Source: Shigella phage vB_SboM_Phaginator
Strand: one strand, 5' to 3'
DNA length: 64,000 bases
Sequence record: OL615012
The translations under genes were made by a program, and so were the position numbers. Shown here in pieces: positions 2,394 to 8,065 of the stretch (positions within the stretch are counted from its first letter, which is position 1; each line of letters starts with the position of its first letter). The notes beneath the pieces were generated by a model. The model had not been told where the DNA came from. It did no database searches and saw only the letters and a list, made by a program, of their open reading frames with translations.

Positions 2394-2729
2394 TTATTCT
2401 TCGTCTATCTCATCGATAAAGACGTCAATGGCCTCGATAACGGCATCATTGATAGCCAATAAAGTAAAATCATCGTCAGTACCTTTATAAGATTCTGAAG
2501 CATTGATATATGCTTGATTGACGAGTTCCCAAGCCTTTTTAAAATAAGGAGTTTCATCATCAGGACAAATATCCCGCACACCTTCAAAGATACGATTGGC
2601 ATAATCTAACACCCATTGTACAGGCATGTTTTGAGAACGTTCGTTAAACTCTTTAAATTCCTTAGATTCAAAAAGCTCTTCAGGATAATAATTTCGATTA
2701 CAAAAAGCTTTACTAAAGTTACGTTTCAT
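2394..2729 (-). CDS. hypothetical acidic protein
   Basis: 111-aa ORF; AGGAG upstream of ATG; acidic C-terminus (IDEIDEE). Confidence 0.55.
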   Translation of the reverse strand: MKRNFSKAFCNRNYYPEELFESKEFKEFNERSQNMPVQWVLDYANRIFEGVRDICPDDETPYFKKAWELVNQAYINASESYKGTDDDFTLLAINDAVIEAIDVFIDEIDEE

Positions 2730-2784: not shown

Positions 2785-3048
2785 TTATTTCATATTATTG
2801 AAATATTCTTCTGCGATTTCGTCGTTATCATGGTAAACTTTAGAAGACAGTTTAACATAACCTTCAGCAGTGAACATGTTAATCACAACTTTTACAGTAT
2901 ACCACTGACCGTCTTCATTACCCATTACTGCGTAAGTTTCAAACATCGGATGGTCAGGACCGATAACTTTAATATCATTCACTGTACGACCGAAATCTTC
3001 TGAAACGCATTTCATAAAGAAGTTGAACAGTTCGCCGTAATTATCCAT
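2785..3048 (-). CDS. hypothetical protein
   Basis: ORF track frame 2785..3060 begins with TTG; preferred ATG at 3048 preceded by GGAG. Confidence 0.5.
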   Translation of the reverse strand: MDNYGELFNFFMKCVSEDFGRTVNDIKVIGPDHPMFETYAVMGNEDGQWYTVKVVINMFTAEGYVKLSSKVYHDNDEIAEEYFNNMK

Positions 3049-3091
3049 TTCATTCTCCAAGTTGTTTTCTGTATCAGTAGTTGATAGTTGT

Positions 3092-3121
3092 ATAGTACCA
3101 TGGAAGAACAGGGATGTAAAC
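3092..3121 (-). promoter_or_regulatory. putative T4-type early promoter (GTTTACA-N17-TACTAT)
   Basis: Minus-strand -35 GTTTACA (3115-3121) and -10 TACTAT (3092-3097) with 17-bp spacer, upstream of ORF 2785..3048. Confidence 0.35.
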
Positions 3122-3253
3122 AGTTTTGTGAAAAAATTTTTAAAAAGTTTTGGGGAATTCTAGGGCGGGAGGGGCAATTAAAAGATAGGATAATATATTA
3201 TAAAGGGTAGAAACTAAATGATGTCTAGAGAGGCCTGGAAAGGCCTAGATACC

Positions 3254-3278
3254 AAAAAGCCCTATCATTTAGATAGGG
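3254..3278 (-). terminator. rho-independent terminator downstream of ipIII-like gene
   Basis: 7-bp stem CCCTATC/GATAGGG with 5-nt loop, followed on minus strand by U5. Confidence 0.5.
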
Positions 3279-3288
3279 ATTTAAAATT

Positions 3289-3855
3289 TTATTTACCCAG
3301 TTTAGTTATTATAGCTTCGGCAGCAGCTTTTAGCTTAGATGCAGTGTTAATACGATTTTTAATTTCAGTATACGCATCGCCAAGAACATCAAGGCTATCT
3401 GAATAAACACTTACACTATTGCGTTCGCTATTTGAAATAGAACCTTTAGTTTTACGATCAAAATCGGTATACACGTCTTGAAGATCGCGTGCTGCCTTCT
3501 TTGCATCATCCAATGCATCAAGAGCTTTATTCAAAGCATTAACATATTTTTTAGTGTCAAACATATTCTTAGAAATTTTGACGGGTGCGCGTTCAGGAGT
3601 AGCTAAGGCAGATTTAGGAAGAACCTGTTTGCCAGATGCCAGTTTCTTAGAAATTTTAAAAAACGCTTTATTGAAATTATTTTCTTGACTCATCGTAAAA
3701 GAACTATTATCAATGTTATACATTTCAATAGCTTTAGCTTTCCACTTAAGAAAATCGCCACGGTCTTTTGGATCCAAGTGGAAGAATACTTTAGTAAGAT
3801 CTGCTTCAGATGGTAATTTTGCTGCTTCGGTTAAAAATTCGGCGTAGGTTTTCAT
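3289..3855 (-). CDS. ipIII: internal head protein, IPIII-like (capsid-targeting sequence MKTYAEFLTE)
   Basis: 188 aa; N-terminus matches T4 internal-protein capsid-targeting sequence with L-x-E protease site. Confidence 0.65.
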   Translation of the reverse strand: MKTYAEFLTEAAKLPSEADLTKVFFHLDPKDRGDFLKWKAKAIEMYNIDNSSFTMSQENNFNKAFFKISKKLASGKQVLPKSALATPERAPVKISKNMFDTKKYVNALNKALDALDDAKKAARDLQDVYTDFDRKTKGSISNSERNSVSVYSDSLDVLGDAYTEIKNRINTASKLKAAAEAIITKLGK

Positions 3856-3938
3856 TTAAAATCCTTGAAATAATTTATTGGTTATTAATTATTTATCACG
3901 TTGTTATATGTAACAGCATTCTCCGAGCGATTCAAACT

Positions 3939-3965
3939 AAAAAGCCCCAACCTTTCTGTCGGGGC
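3939..3965 (-). terminator. rho-independent terminator after internal protein gene
   Basis: Minus-strand RNA GCCCCGAC-AGAAAG-GUUGGGGC followed by U5. Confidence 0.6.
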
Positions 3966-3972
3966 TAAAATG

Positions 3973-4446
3973 TTATTTAATTTGCTTAGCAGACCAAATG
4001 CGGTCTTTGATAATTTTTTGGATGTCTTCAACATATTCAAGAGAGTGAACATGTGGGTTATCTTTGAAACTATAAGCACGAGCTAGCTTTTGGCCTTCGG
4101 TTTTGATTACTAAAAGCTCTTTAAGGATAGCTTCATATTTGGAGATAATTCCTTTAACAATATTTTTCTCTTGTGCGACTTTAGGATCTGCTTTAGGAGC
4201 AGGTTTACCTGAAGCCTTTGCAAAAGCAGCTCCAGTAGCAACTAAACTTTTCCAGGCCATACTAACTGCATTCCCTGTAAATCCTTCCGCTTTCATATCG
4301 CGAGCAAATTGGAATCGTGATTCATCGGAAGCATCTTTATAGGAATATTTACCCGCGGCAATGGCAGCTTTTGCAACAGCTTGAATTTCGGTGCTAGATG
4401 CTTCATTTAACACCGCTTCATTTAAAAATTGAGCATATGATTTCAT
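3973..4446 (-). CDS. internal head protein (capsid-targeting sequence MKSYAQFLNE), ipII position
   Basis: 157 aa; N-terminal MK(T/S)Y-x-F-x-E motif with L-N-E cleavage site; late promoter upstream, terminator downstream. Confidence 0.6.
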   Translation of the reverse strand: MKSYAQFLNEAVLNEASSTEIQAVAKAAIAAGKYSYKDASDESRFQFARDMKAEGFTGNAVSMAWKSLVATGAAFAKASGKPAPKADPKVAQEKNIVKGIISKYEAILKELLVIKTEGQKLARAYSFKDNPHVHSLEYVEDIQKIIKDRIWSAKQIK

Positions 4447-4482
4447 CTTATTTCCTGTTTTAATTCGTGGTTTTAATATACT

Positions 4483-4490
4483 TATTTATA
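4483..4490 (-). promoter_or_regulatory. T4 late promoter box TATAAATA
   Basis: Exact TATAAATA on minus strand about 37 bp upstream of the ATG at 4446. Confidence 0.5.
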
Positions 4491-4492
4491 CT

Positions 4493-4519
4493 AAAAAGCC
4501 CCAACCTTTCGGTCGGGGC
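4493..4519 (-). terminator. rho-independent terminator at end of tRNA/stable-RNA operon
   Basis: Near-identical copy of the hairpin at 3939-3965 (one mismatch), followed by U5 on minus strand. Confidence 0.6.
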
Positions 4520-4523
4520 TAAG

Positions 4524-4836
4524 CCTTGCGGCAACCTTGTCGGGGTTCCACCTGCTAAGGCAAGTGTTTGTACGAAACGCCGGGATTCGAACCCGGTTAT
4601 TAAGCAGTTGACGCTACTCAATATTTTTAAAAGGCCATATCTCGACCATATCCGAACGTTCCGTCAAAAACGCTACTCGGTTTACGGCAAAGATATTTCC
4701 TCGAATCGATAATTCGATGCGCCGTTTCTGCTGTGATGTAAGGGGGCATTAACCGATCGTAAAGATTTGTTAATGCCAGTCCTTACCCAGGGAACATCAG
4801 TCCGACGACTTGCCGGTAGCGACCCGGCTTCTTGTC
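4524..4836 (-). ncRNA. structured non-coding RNA region downstream of tRNA-Arg (possibly T4 RNA C / RNA D-like stable RNAs)
   Basis: About 310 nt between tRNA-Arg and terminator; no ORF; several hairpins and a T-arm-like motif CCGGGUUCGAAUCCCGG (4580-4596) but no full cloverleaf. Confidence 0.3.
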
Positions 4837-4912
4837 TGGTCGAGGCAGTAGGGATCGAACCTACGACCTAGGACTTAGAAGGTCCTTGCTCTTCCTTCTG
4901 AGCTATGCCTCG
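4837..4912 (-). tRNA. tRNA-Arg (anticodon UCU)
   Basis: Cloverleaf on reverse complement: D-arm GCUCAGAAGGAAGAGC, anticodon loop CUUCUAA, T-arm GGUUCGAUCC, encoded CCA. Confidence 0.85.
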
Positions 4913-4916
4913 TATT

Positions 4917-4991
4917 TGGCGGACGTGATAGGATTCGAACCTATAACCAATCGCTTAACAGGCGATCGCTCTGCCATTGAGCTACACATCC
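4917..4991 (-). tRNA. tRNA-Asn (anticodon GUU)
   Basis: Reverse complement GGAUGUGUAGCUCAAUGG...; anticodon loop CUGUUAA; T-arm GGUUCGAAUCC; encoded CCA. Confidence 0.8.
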
Positions 4992-4995
4992 AAAT

Positions 4996-5082
4996 TGGTG
5001 GGGAGTGATGGAGTCGAACCACCCGAGTCGCAATGACAATGGATTTACAGTCCACACCGCTACCTCTACGGGATAACTCCCC
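4996..5082 (-). tRNA. tRNA-Tyr (anticodon GUA), long variable arm
   Basis: 87 nt; anticodon loop CUGUAAA; long variable arm; T-arm GGUUCGACUCC; encoded CCA. Confidence 0.75.
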
Positions 5083-5094
5083 TAATTCATAATT

Positions 5095-5169
5095 TGGTGG
5101 CCCTGGGTGGAATTGAACCACCATCTGGCGATTATGAGTCGCTTGCTTGAACCTTCCAGCTACAGGGCC
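5095..5169 (-). tRNA. tRNA with anticodon CAU (Ile as in T4, or Met)
   Basis: Anticodon loop CUCAUAA; T-arm GGUUCAAUUCC; encoded CCA; Ile assignment by analogy with T4 tRNA-Ile. Confidence 0.7.
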
Positions 5170-5170
5170 T

Positions 5171-5246
5171 TGGTGCTGATTGACGGAATCGAACCGCCGA
5201 CCTTCTCATTACAAGTGAGTTGCTCTACCTACTGAGCTAAATCAGC
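5171..5246 (-). tRNA. tRNA-Thr (anticodon UGU)
   Basis: D-arm GCUCAGUAGGUAGAGC; anticodon loop CUUGUAA; T-arm GGUUCGAUUCC; encoded CCA. Confidence 0.85.
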
Positions 5247-5251
5247 AAAAC

Positions 5252-5341
5252 TGGCGGAGGCGATAGGATTTGAACCTATGAGTCGCCGGAGCGACTGCCG
5301 GTTTTCAAGACCGGTGCATTAAACCACTCTGCCACGCCTCC
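5252..5341 (-). tRNA. tRNA-Ser (anticodon UGA), long variable arm
   Basis: 90 nt; GGAGGCGUGGCAGAGUGG...; anticodon loop CUUGAAA; long variable arm; T-arm GGUUCAAAUCC; CCA. Confidence 0.85.
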
Positions 5342-5347
5342 AAATAT

Positions 5348-5956
5348 TTATATATTGTTAATTTGATTTAGAATTCTTTTTGCTTGAGTATGACTTACGC
5401 CAATATGCTTAGCATATTTAGACAATTCGCCACGTTTAGAAAAATCATATAATTTAGAAATTTCTATTCTTCTTTTTCTTTCATCCGCAGAAACTTTTGC
5501 TTCGTTTGCTTTTGCTATTTTACGTTTAGCTTCTTGAGAATGAGTTTTACCAGCAAAGCCATTCTTCATTAATCCATTTGAAGACCATCCTTTTAATTTT
5601 CCGTTAGAATGTGCCTTTTTAACACCCAATGAAATTAATTCGCGTTGCTGATCTGTCATAGGATAATTATTTATATGATCCCATCCACCTTCACCTCCAA
5701 GTTTTAAATTATACACATCTGGTCTATTTAAAAACTCTTCTGTGACAATATTTTTCTCGGCTTCAAGCATAGATTCTTTATCGTCAAAATACTCTAATAT
5801 TTCTTTAGAAAAATTTTCTATACCATATTTATCTTGGGCTCTTTTTAATAATTTACCAGAACCCATATATCCATCATCTAAATTTTCGGTAGAATGCACA
5901 CCAATATAAATTTTATTATTAATTTTATTTGTTATTTTATAAAGATAAAAATGCAT
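5348..5956 (-). CDS. segB: GIY-YIG homing endonuclease, SegB-like, embedded in tRNA operon
   Basis: GIY-YIG motifs (FYLYKI...KIYIGVHS, YMGSG); track ORF 5348..5998, preferred ATG at 5956 preceded by AGGGA. Confidence 0.8.
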   Translation of the reverse strand: MHFYLYKITNKINNKIYIGVHSTENLDDGYMGSGKLLKRAQDKYGIENFSKEILEYFDDKESMLEAEKNIVTEEFLNRPDVYNLKLGGEGGWDHINNYPMTDQQRELISLGVKKAHSNGKLKGWSSNGLMKNGFAGKTHSQEAKRKIAKANEAKVSADERKRRIEISKLYDFSKRGELSKYAKHIGVSHTQAKRILNQINNI

Positions 5957-6002
5957 ATCAGTCCCTAATAAAGAACTGAGCGTCTCACGACGAGTCATAA
6001 AT

Positions 6003-6076
<74 letters not shown>

Positions 6077-6081
6077 AAATT

Positions 6082-6170
6082 TGGTGCGAGAAGTGGGACT
6101 CGAACCCACAAGGAAATCATTCCGCAGCATTTTAAGTGCTGTGCCTTTACCAATTTGACCATTCTCGCGC
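6082..6170 (-). tRNA. tRNA-Leu (anticodon UAA)
   Basis: 89 nt; anticodon loop CUUAAAA; long variable arm; T-arm GGUUCGAGUCC; CCA. Confidence 0.9.
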
Positions 6171-6242
6171 TGGGAATAAAGGACTCGAACCTTTGCATCC
6201 TGGAATCAAAATCCAGTGCCTTACCAACTTGGCTAATTCCCA
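6171..6242 (-). tRNA. tRNA-Gln (anticodon UUG)
   Basis: Anticodon loop UUUUGAU; T-arm GGUUCGAGUCC; directly abuts tRNA-Leu; 3' CCA not obviously encoded. Confidence 0.8.
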
Positions 6243-7777: not shown

Positions 7778-8065
7778 TTATAGAAGATTTTTTGCAATAA
7801 TTTTAAGCTGAGCTACTGAAATATGCTTGGCTTTAAACAAAGCAGTTTCTTCAGCAGGAGAGATAACGATTGTAGCACCATCCTTTTTAGCAGACCACCC
7901 ATCACCTAGGTAAACAGTACCTTTGATTTCTTCGCCATCAACCAGACTAATCATTGGTTTACCTTCTCGTCCTTTATTTGCTTTAATAACTTCAGAAGTA
8001 AGAGTAGCTTCGGTAATAGTAGAAACCGGGGTAGTTGTAGAAGTAAATTCTTTGAAAGTTTTCAT
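7778..8065 (-). CDS. ipI: internal protein I (IPI), capsid-targeted injected protein
   Basis: 95 aa as T4 IPI; N-terminus MKTFKEF with I-T-E cleavage site giving a 76-aa mature form. Confidence 0.7.
   Translation of the reverse strand: MKTFKEFTSTTTPVSTITEATLTSEVIKANKGREGKPMISLVDGEEIKGTVYLGDGWSAKKDGATIVISPAEETALFKAKHISVAQLKIIAKNLL

What the first reader, a model, noticed from the sequence alone, without database searches (positions are those of the whole stretch)
3254..4523. Internal-protein cassette flanked by near-identical 32-bp terminator repeats
Two genes (3289-3855 and 3973-4446) encode proteins whose N-termini (MKTYAEFLTE, MKSYAQFLNE) match the T4 capsid-targeting sequence with an L-x-E protease site, so both are predicted to be packaged in the head and injected with the DNA. 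Their mature parts are unrelated to each other. The second gene is bracketed by two copies of one terminator (3937-3968 and 4491-4523, 31 of 32 nt identical), a layout that would let homologous recombination swap or delete the cassette. Injected proteins at such loci in T4 include the anti-restriction factor IPI, so these are candidates for uncharacterised anti-defence effectors.
Basis: partly seen in the sequence, partly recalled or inferred. Interest (0 to 1): 0.6.

Follow-up and report, generated by a model that had tools for sequence, protein, structure and literature searches.

The report
Swappable injected-protein gene cassettes in T4-like phage
A T4-like phage carries two optional genes for proteins that are probably packed into the virus head and injected with the DNA. 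Related phages gain and lose each gene by recombination at repeated copies of one transcription terminator, a known kind of arrangement seen here at a site not described before.

Summary
Two minus-strand genes (3973-4446, 157 aa; 3289-3855, 188 aa) start with T4-type capsid-targeting leaders. The 157-aa gene is bracketed by two copies of one intrinsic terminator (4490-4522 and 3936-3968, 32/33 nt identical), found nowhere else in the 64 kb.

The locus is not ipII/ipIII. It is the gap between rnaC (the end of the tRNA cluster) and e.8. That gap is empty in T4, T2 and PST, where a single copy of the same terminator sits.

Related phages show all four states: both genes, either one alone, or neither. 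Every junction lies at the terminator T-run, so cassette turnover at the repeats is directly supported. RB32's GenBank record already notes the flanking repeat.

The two proteins are not unrelated. Without their leaders, both match phrog_2280. They share a predicted layout (helical N-domain, Lys/Pro linker, helical hairpin), and chimeric relatives link them.

No fold or family match gives a function. All four leader-bearing proteins with a known target (Ip1-3, Bas37_0260) inhibit type IV restriction enzymes, so that is the likeliest role here, but it is untested.

Verdict: new, uncharacterised members of a known kind, at a third ip site. Moderate interest.

The parts
4571..4832 (-). Context: rnaC (4571-4709) and rnaD (4718-4832) small stable RNA genes. 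They form the 3' end of the tRNA cluster, whose transcript ends at terminator T1.
   Evidence: blastn against T4 rnaC gives 97.8% over 139 nt, and against rnaD 86% over 116 nt.
4490..4522 (-). Terminator T1, the ancestral copy. The hairpin is AGCCCCGACC-GAAA-GGTTGGGGCT followed by TTTTT. It is the upstream boundary of the 157-aa cassette.
   Evidence: -20.3 kcal/mol. The same sequence is present as a single copy in T4, PST and BYEP01 at the empty site. JS98-like phages carry a compensatory C-G to G-C change in the stem, in both of their copies.
4483..4490 (-). Exact T4 late-promoter motif TATAAATA. It abuts the T-run of T1 and lies 36 nt upstream of the 157-aa gene's ATG. An AGGAAA ribosome-binding site follows.
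   Evidence: The same T1+TATAAATA composite precedes cassettes in RB32, JB75, L003-L005 and L008-L012.
3973..4446 (-). Gene for the 157-aa protein (w157). The leader is MKSYAQFLNE|AVLNE|A, with two L-N-E sites. The mature protein is about 16 kDa with pI 9.5. The model shows a three-helix N-domain (res ~18-71), a Lys/Pro linker and a C-terminal helical hairpin.
   Evidence: tblastn finds it in 511 phage records, 467 of them near full length. It matches phrog_2280.
3936..3968 (-). Terminator T1', the second copy (one loop mismatch). It terminates w157 and is the boundary between the two cassettes.
   Evidence: -16.3 kcal/mol.
3890..3897 (-). GATAAATA, a 7/8 match to the late-promoter motif, upstream of the 188-aa gene. 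Relatives have AATAAATA at this position. This is a possible weak late promoter.
   Evidence: Alignment of six w188 upstream regions shows ATAAATAATTAATAACCA is invariant. No sigma-70-type site was found here on the minus strand. A promoter function is inferred, not shown.
3289..3855 (-). Gene for the 188-aa protein (w188). The leader is MKTYAEFLTE|AA. The mature protein is about 19.8 kDa with pI 9.5. The model shows a small helical N-domain, a disordered linker (res 77-98) and a long helical hairpin (101-186).
   Evidence: tblastn finds it in 164 phage records. Its only distant relatives are other leader-bearing proteins: P0028 and the JS98-like 205-aa protein. It matches phrog_2280.
3254..3278 (-). 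Terminator T2, with a different stem (CCCTATC-TAAAT-GATAGGG) but the same GGGCTTTTT/GGTATCTAGG junction to the e.8 side as T1 has in empty-site phages.
   Evidence: -11 kcal/mol.
2785..3120 (-). Context: e.8 (ATG at 3048, stop at 2785) and its T4-type early promoter (3092-3120). This is the conserved right-hand flank of the site.
   Evidence: T4 annotation.

Best explanation
The window comes from a Tequatrovirus (T4-like phage). The intergenic site between the end of the tRNA/rnaD/rnaC cluster and gene e.8 is empty in T4. Here it holds two tandem accessory-gene cassettes.

Each cassette consists of a terminator, a late or late-like promoter, a ribosome-binding site and an ORF that begins with a capsid-targeting sequence (CTS). 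The first cassette is bounded on both sides by copies of the tRNA-cluster terminator T1.

Shown: recombination within these about 33-bp repeats, and at the shared GGGCTTTTT tail of the third terminator, accounts for the natural states seen among close relatives. Those states are both genes, either one alone, or neither.

Inferred: the two proteins are made late, carried into the prohead core by the N-terminal CTS, and cleaved after Glu10 of L-x-E by the prohead protease gp21. They would then be stored with the DNA as basic 16- and 20-kDa proteins and injected.

Inferred by analogy only: once in the cell, each protein blocks a specific host nuclease that attacks sugar-modified hmC DNA, meaning a type IV restriction enzyme of the GmrSD or McrBC kind.

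The two proteins belong to one mosaic family (phrog_2280) whose N- and C-terminal domains have been reassorted among T4-like phages of Escherichia, Klebsiella and Yersinia.
For: Locus identity and the empty site:
- PST is and BYEP01.

Cassette states, with junctions exactly at the terminator T-run:
- Both genes: window, JB75, L005, L012.
- w157 only: RB32, L003, L004.
- w188 only: G4498.
- Sources.

Spread sample of 60 of 721 matching phage records:
- 11 have both genes, 3 have w188 only, 22 have w157 only and about 7 are empty.
- All of these have flanks 88-97% identical to the window (mostly 93-97%).

Prior note: the RB32 GenBank record says 'flanked by 34 bp imperfect direct repeat'.

Repeat significance and hairpins.

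Leader and protein properties:
- The leaders match T4 MKTYQEFIAE at 7/10 and 5/10 positions, with L-x-E followed by Ala.
- Only three such ORFs occur in the 64 kb.
- Distant homologues keep the leader while the rest diverges.
- Mature pI is 9.5, like T4 IPs.
- An exact TATAAATA follows T1.

Family relations.

Functional analogy:
- Ip1, Ip2 and Ip3 each inhibit a distinct GmrSD (PMC12373910).
- The leader-bearing Bas37_0260 inhibits McrBC (bioRxiv 10.1101/2025.11.20.689424).
- IPIII works in the cytoplasm without its CTS (PMC9391042).

Recombination model: promoter/stem-loop-mediated modular shuffling and IP-locus plasticity are described in PMC2839356.
Against: - There is no direct evidence that either protein is in virions or injected. 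The literature searches found no proteomics for them.
- Neither protein shows sequence or fold similarity to IPI*, IPII, IPIII or any characterised inhibitor.
- The w188 model has only moderate confidence (pLDDT 66).
- ip4-10 tested against 15 GmrSD groups gave no reproducible targets, so the analogy may not generalise.
- w188 lacks an exact late promoter.
- At the same site, JS98-like phages carry a cassette with no leader (DUF7338). The site is therefore not specific to internal proteins.
- T1' and T2 share only about 9-10 nt, which is short for homologous exchange.
Confidence: 0.7

Rival explanations
1. The two genes are simply this phage's ipII and ipIII, orthologues of the characterised T4 genes in conserved synteny.
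For: The gene order (a shorter gene then a ~190-aa gene), the CTS leaders and the proximity to e-region genes look similar at first sight.
Against: T4 ipII/ipIII lie between denV and e, about 4.5 kb away, and this site is empty in T4. BLASTP against IPIII matches only the 12-residue leader, and against IPII it finds nothing. T4 IPII and IPIII fall in other PHROGs (7857, 5341) and do not hit phrog_2280.
Confidence: 0.02
2. The proteins are packaged internal proteins, but their role is structural or physico-chemical rather than inhibition of a specific host defence. Basic counter-ions or spacers for the condensed DNA, or aids to ejection, are examples.
For: Both mature proteins are basic (pI 9.5), have Lys/Pro-rich disordered linkers and consist of long helices without recognisable active sites. 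No target was found for ip4-10 in the one systematic test.
Against: Presence or absence varies among near-identical phages, and pseudogenised copies exist: RB69 is split into ORF148c/149c, and there are 93-106-aa truncations. This fits host-specific accessory functions better than a general structural need. All four CTS proteins with known roles are specific nuclease inhibitors.
Confidence: 0.2
3. The N-terminal resemblance to the CTS does not function. The proteins are ordinary late cytoplasmic accessory proteins that are not packaged.
For: The w157 leader matches the T4 consensus at only 5/10 positions. No virion data exist.
Against: The leader, with its L-x-E then Ala site, is kept across genera while the rest of the protein diverges to 25-40% identity or is swapped. 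The motif is found only three times in the window, and the third is IPI. Late-promoter placement fits prohead assembly timing.
Confidence: 0.1
4. The two terminator copies are independent, convergent terminators with no role in gene turnover. Variation among relatives arose by unrelated illegitimate deletions.
For: Intrinsic terminators are common after phage accessory genes. T2 after w188 has a different stem.
Against: 32/33 identity includes the loop and non-pairing flanks (TTAG...AGT), and no other copy exists in 64 kb. Junctions in independent genomes of three different states fall exactly at the T-run. Polymorphisms in T1 and T1' are exchanged between the two positions in different phages: CCCCAGCC is upstream in L004 and downstream in RB32.
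Confidence: 0.05

Closest known systems
[quoted passage not shown] 1994; Mullaney & Black 1996; Silas et al. 2025, PMC12373910)
   Same: They share a short N-terminal capsid-targeting leader ending in (L/I)-x-E then Ala. The mature proteins are small and basic. The genes are dispensable and highly variable among close relatives, and sit next to conserved regulatory stem-loops.
   Different: The mature sequences and predicted folds are unrelated to IPI*, IPII, IPIII, and PST IpIV/V/VI. The genes lie at a third site (rnaC/e.8), not at the two described ip loci. The control module is a GC-rich intrinsic terminator plus a late promoter, whereas T4 ipI/II/III have early promoters with AT-rich stem-loops. 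Packaging, injection and target are untested.
[quoted passage not shown] 2010, PMC2839356; Comeau et al. 2014, PMC4122927)
   Same: A variable ORF is flanked by repeated regulatory stem-loop motifs. Relatives with the ORF missing keep a single motif. The cassette brings its own promoter and terminator. Recombination between flanking motifs explains insertion and deletion.
   Different: The repeat here is a terminator joined to a late promoter (TATAAATA), not a sigma-70-like early promoter with an embedded stem-loop. Only the terminator part is duplicated around w157. Mini-circle intermediates have not been looked for.
Bas37_0260, a CTS-bearing McrBC inhibitor at the ipI locus of phage Bas37 (HIDEN-SEQ preprint, 10.1101/2025.11.20.689424)
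   Same: It is a previously unannotated protein recognised by the N-terminal packaging leader alone, in a variable ip site of a T4 relative.
   Different: It sits at a different locus.
RB32ORF133c and RB69ORF148c/149c (GenBank DQ904452, AY303349)
   Same: These are direct orthologues of w157 and w188 at the same site. The RB32 record already notes 'flanked by 34 bp imperfect direct repeat'.
   Different: They are annotated only as hypothetical proteins, with no mention of the leader. In RB69 the w188 homologue is split into two ORFs.

Membership tests
T4-type internal (CTS-targeted, injected) proteins | N-terminal ~10-residue capsid-targeting sequence resembling MKTYQEFIAE | tested here: met
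   w188 MKTYAEFLTE matches at 7/10 positions. w157 MKSYAQFLNE matches at 5/10, with three conservative changes. Only three ORFs in the 64 kb carry the pattern.
T4-type internal (CTS-targeted, injected) proteins | gp21 prohead-protease site (L/I)-x-E followed by a small residue at the end of the leader | tested here: met
   LTE|A in w188. LNE|A at residues 8-11 and again at 13-16 in w157. Cleavage itself was not tested.
T4-type internal (CTS-targeted, injected) proteins | Physically present in the mature head and injected with the DNA | not testable with these tools
   No virion proteomics for these proteins was found.
T4-type internal (CTS-targeted, injected) proteins | Dispensable, and variable in presence among close relatives | tested here: met
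   All four presence/absence states occur among phages whose flanks are mostly 93-97% identical to the window. Truncated and split copies exist.
T4-type internal (CTS-targeted, injected) proteins | Encoded at one of the two described ip loci (denV-e, or trna.4-57B) | tested here: not met
   The genes lie between rnaC and e.8. The literature speaks of two loci. This is a feature of description rather than of mechanism.
T4 IPII / IPIII orthologues | Similarity of the mature protein to IPII or IPIII, with conserved synteny | tested here: not met
   Only the leader aligns. The PHROGs differ, and so does the locus.
IPI* (Pfam PF11634) GmrSD inhibitor fold | Match to the IPI_T4 family or fold | tested here: not met
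   The window's own IPI orthologue (7778-8065) hits PF11634 at 5e-52, whereas w157 and w188 do not. Both models are all-helical.
Type IV restriction (GmrSD/McrBC) inhibitors, functional class | Relieves restriction of glucosyl-hmC phage by a specific nuclease | not testable with these tools
   The inference rests on Ip1-3 and Bas37_0260.
PeSL-type modular shuffling cassettes | Variable ORF flanked on both sides by a repeated regulatory stem-loop motif, with relatives that lack the ORF keeping one motif | tested here: met
   T1 and T1' flank w157, and there is a single T1 in T4, PST and BYEP01.
PeSL-type modular shuffling cassettes | The motif contains a sigma-70-like early promoter combined with the stem-loop | tested here: not met
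   The promoter joined to T1 is the late motif TATAAATA, and no sigma-70-type site is present.
PeSL-type modular shuffling cassettes | Circular excision products formed during infection | not testable with these tools
   This needs inverse PCR or deep sequencing of infected cells.
phrog_2280 (unknown function) | Significant full-length profile match that does not depend on the leader | tested here: met
   Leaderless w157 scores 7e-53 and leaderless w188 9e-47. The JS98-like 205-aa protein, P0022 and P0028 also match, while the T4 IPs do not.

The most novel reading that the evidence does not exclude
The terminator of the tRNA/rnaC cluster may act as a recurrent docking site for 'terminator + late promoter + ORF' cassettes, forming a small integron-like array. 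It would be a third, unrecognised hotspot for injected-protein genes in Tevenvirinae, and it also accepts other cargo (DUF7338). Spread of the cassettes may be helped by co-conversion from the neighbouring Seg homing endonuclease. Its main cargo, the phrog_2280 family, would be a modular two-domain injected inhibitor in which one domain is swapped to retarget different host nucleases.
Probability: 0.3. Interest if true: 0.6.

Novelty: new member of a known kind. Interest (0 to 1): 0.4.

Why it matters
Injected internal proteins of T-even phages have recently been shown to be specific inhibitors of type IV restriction enzymes, and most variants still have no known target.

The 157-aa protein is present in roughly 500 sequenced phage genomes and the 188-aa protein in about 160. 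Many of these phages are being considered for therapy, yet nearly every record calls the genes 'hypothetical'.

Recognising them as leader-bearing cassette genes at a third variable site has three practical consequences:
- It gives two concrete candidates for host-range determinants.
- Natural isogenic-like comparisons already exist, because phages with and without each gene are available.
- The flanking repeats offer a simple handle for engineering.

It also corrects the view that ip genes are confined to two loci.

Tried and rejected
Searches that gave nothing useful for function:
- Pfam gave only sub-threshold helical-bundle noise.
- NCBIfam gave nothing.
- A PDB sequence search gave nothing below E = 0.1.
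- Foldseek of the w157 model against the PDB gave E > 1 throughout.
- Foldseek of both models against BFVD returned only members of their own family.

Ideas tested and rejected:
- That w157 is the named IpIV of phage PST, which has the same length of 157 aa. The sequences are unrelated and PST's rnaC/e.8 site is empty.
- That phrog_2280 membership is an artefact of the shared leader. Leaderless proteins still match, and the T4 IPs do not.

Weak or failed attempts:
- My own profile-profile comparison of the two leaderless families gave only a weak C-terminal signal (hhalign probability 40%). Homology of the two proteins therefore rests on the PHROG profile and on bridging sequences, not on a direct match.
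- The IMG/VR scan with e.8 returned only 10 loci. The census therefore rests on a 60-row spread sample and on tblastn totals, not on a full count.
- Repoila et al. 1994 is not held in the library. Its Ip4-10 sequences could only be checked indirectly, through GenBank notes.
- Literature searches for the locus tags and for virion proteomics of these proteins found nothing.
Full report
**What is in the sequence**

The window is a T4-like phage. A 2-kb query around the finding matches 718 phage records, nearly all Tequatrovirus, with the best at about 97% identity. All genes here read on the minus strand. In transcription order the region contains:
- a tRNA cluster (4837-6242, nine tRNAs);
- homologues of the T4 small RNAs rnaD (4718-4832) and rnaC (4571-4709);
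- terminator T1 (4490-4522);
- an exact late-promoter motif TATAAATA (4483-4490);
- the 157-aa gene, here called w157 (3973-4446);
- terminator T1' (3936-3968);
- the 188-aa gene, here called w188 (3289-3855);
- a different terminator, T2 (hairpin 3260-3278);
- the early promoter and coding sequence of e.8, followed by e.7, e.6, e.5, e.4 and e.3.

**Checking the observation**

T1 and T1' are 32/33 identical, and the 33-nt pattern occurs nowhere else in the 64 kb. No match was found in 100 shuffles. Both copies fold as strong hairpins followed by a T-run: -20.3 and -16.3 kcal/mol, with no shuffle doing as well. A six-frame scan for the leader pattern finds only these two ORFs and the IPI orthologue at 7778-8065.

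**Which locus this is**

It is not ipII/ipIII. In T4 those genes lie between denV and e, and ipI lies between trna.4 and 57B. The interval between rnaC and e.8 in T4 is a 285-bp gap. That gap contains one copy of T1, followed directly by GGTATCTAAGCC.... In the window the same flank (GGTATCTAGGCC...) follows T2. Relative to T4, the window therefore has two insertions, each ending in a terminator whose T-run joins the next unit. Neither protein resembles IPII or IPIII beyond the leader.

**Turnover at the repeats**

I took a spread sample of 60 of the 721 records that match 2785-4840. It falls into discrete size classes:

| Class | Records in sample | Span |
|---|---|---|
| Both genes | 11 | about 2050 bp |
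| w188 only | 3 | about 1490 bp |
| w157 only | 22 | about 1370 bp |
| Neither | about 7 | 750-820 bp |

The rest of the sample is more divergent. Flanks are 88-97% identical to the window (mostly 93-97%) in all four classes.

I read one or more representatives of each class:
- RB32 has rnaC-T1-TATAAATA-w157-T1'-GGTATCTAGG.
- G4498 has rnaC-T1-AGTTTGAATC-w188-T2-GGTATCTAGG. This is exactly the product expected from an exchange between T1 and T1' in a two-gene phage.
- T4, PST and BYEP01 have rnaC-T1-GGTATCTA(A/G)G.

Every junction is at the end of a terminator T-run. Polymorphisms within the repeat swap position between phages: the CCCCAGCC variant is the upstream copy in L004 and the downstream copy in RB32.

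Totals from tblastn agree with this picture. w157 is in 511 records, w188 is in 164, and 127 records cover at least 80% of the two-gene locus.

**More distant relatives**

Mosigvirus Shf125875 has a w157 homologue between two T1-like hairpins. JS98-like phages (L008, L010) carry two other cassettes at the same site: a DUF7338 membrane-like ORF without a leader, and a 205-aa leader-bearing protein. Each is preceded by a T1 variant plus TATAAATA. In these phages the stem carries a compensatory C-G to G-C change in both copies, which supports a conserved hairpin. The unit that repeats is thus 'terminator + late promoter'.

T4 ipI, ipII and ipIII differ in this respect. They sit behind early promoters with AT-rich stem-loops between the -35 and -10 elements. 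Those are the elements described by Repoila et al. and called PeSL-like by Arbiol et al..

**The proteins**

BLASTP between w157 and w188 aligns only the leader. Several results nevertheless link them:
- Both match phrog_2280 over their full length.
- They still match after the leader is removed (7e-53 and 9e-47), whereas T4 IPII, T4 IPIII and PST IpIV fall in other PHROGs.
- An all-against-library HMMER search with mature w188 found only its own tight family plus P0028. P0028 is a 204-aa protein with its own leader (MITFNEFLNE) at 29% identity.
- The JS98-like 205-aa protein aligns with w188 end to end.
- Klebsiella and Yersinia phage proteins (P0022, P0021) combine the conserved N-domain of w157 (P0022 52% identity, P0021 55%) with a C-domain that matches the 205-aa protein (4e-6).

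AlphaFold models give the same layout for both: a small helical N-domain, a Lys/Pro-rich linker and a long helical hairpin. Mean pLDDT is 77 for w157 and 66 for w188. My own profile-profile test gave only a weak direct signal.

Both mature proteins have pI 9.5, within the range of T4 IPI*, IPII and IPIII.

**Function**

No curated family, solved structure or predicted viral structure outside the family matches. The functional inference is therefore by analogy:
- In T4, Ip1, Ip2 and Ip3 each inhibit a different GmrSD type IV restriction enzyme (PMC12373910).
- IPIII acts in the cytoplasm without its leader (PMC9391042).
- A leader-bearing protein of phage Bas37 inhibits McrBC.

Against generalising, ip4-10 gave no reproducible target among 15 GmrSD groups.

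My estimates are about 0.8 that the two proteins are packaged and processed, about 0.85 that the cassettes turn over by recombination at the terminators, and about 0.4-0.5 that their targets are type IV restriction enzymes.

**Comparison with what is known, and novelty**

The following are all established:
- leader-bearing variable internal proteins;
- their association with repeated regulatory stem-loops;
- recombination between such motifs as the engine of cassette shuffling.

What is not in the sources I could read:
- these two proteins as internal-protein candidates, since nearly all database names are 'hypothetical', with one 'Internal head protein' on a Klebsiella homologue;
- the use of a strong intrinsic terminator joined to a late promoter as the repeated module.

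This is a new member of a known kind, of moderate interest. It is directly testable because natural plus and minus variants exist.

Noticed in passing
window 5348-5998 (-): This is a GIY-YIG homing endonuclease. Its N-terminal catalytic domain is 83% identical to T4 SegB over 117 aa, but its C-terminal half is unrelated. It sits between tRNA-Ser and tRNA-Gly. T4 and PST have segB next to tRNA-Arg, and JB75 has tRNA-Pro at this position and no endonuclease. It looks like a Seg variant with a new target site inside the tRNA cluster, about 0.9 kb from the cassette site.
   Followed up: partly
window 4837-6242 (-): The tRNA set differs from T4. The window has Arg, Asn, Tyr, Met, Thr, Ser, Gly, Leu and Gln (nine tRNAs, no Ile, no Pro). 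T4 has Arg, Ile, Thr, Ser, Pro, Gly, Leu and Gln.
   Followed up: no
window 7778-8065 (-): This is a near-identical orthologue of T4 IPI, the GmrSD inhibitor (Pfam PF11634 at 5e-52). It sits at the classical ipI locus behind an early promoter with a stem-loop. This phage therefore carries at least three leader-bearing genes within the window.
   Followed up: partly
L008 4636-5190 and L010 (JS98-like phages), same site as window 3254-4523: A 184-aa membrane-like protein (DUF7338, phrog_2143) with no capsid-targeting leader occupies a cassette. That cassette is bounded by the same terminator-plus-late-promoter module.
   Followed up: partly
RB69 (AY303349) 73431-73990; also 93-106-aa cluster members: The w188 homologue of RB69 is split into two ORFs (148c/149c). 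Several phages carry truncated w157 or w188 copies, which suggests frequent pseudogenisation of these accessory genes.
   Followed up: no
window 4402-4446 (-), codons 1-15 of w157: The leader region reads LNEAVLNEA, an apparent five-residue duplication that creates two protease sites. Other family members have a single site (MKSYAEFLTEQ...). The JS98-like 205-aa protein shares the duplicated form (LNESVLNEA) despite a different mature part, which suggests exchange within the leader-coding DNA.
   Followed up: partly
window 2394-2729 (e.7), compared with RB32, PST and Shf125875: The neighbouring gene e.7 is itself replaced by unrelated ORFs in RB32 (note 'replaces e.7'), in PST (ORF130) and in Mosigvirus. 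The whole e.7-rnaC stretch is therefore a variable region.
   Followed up: no
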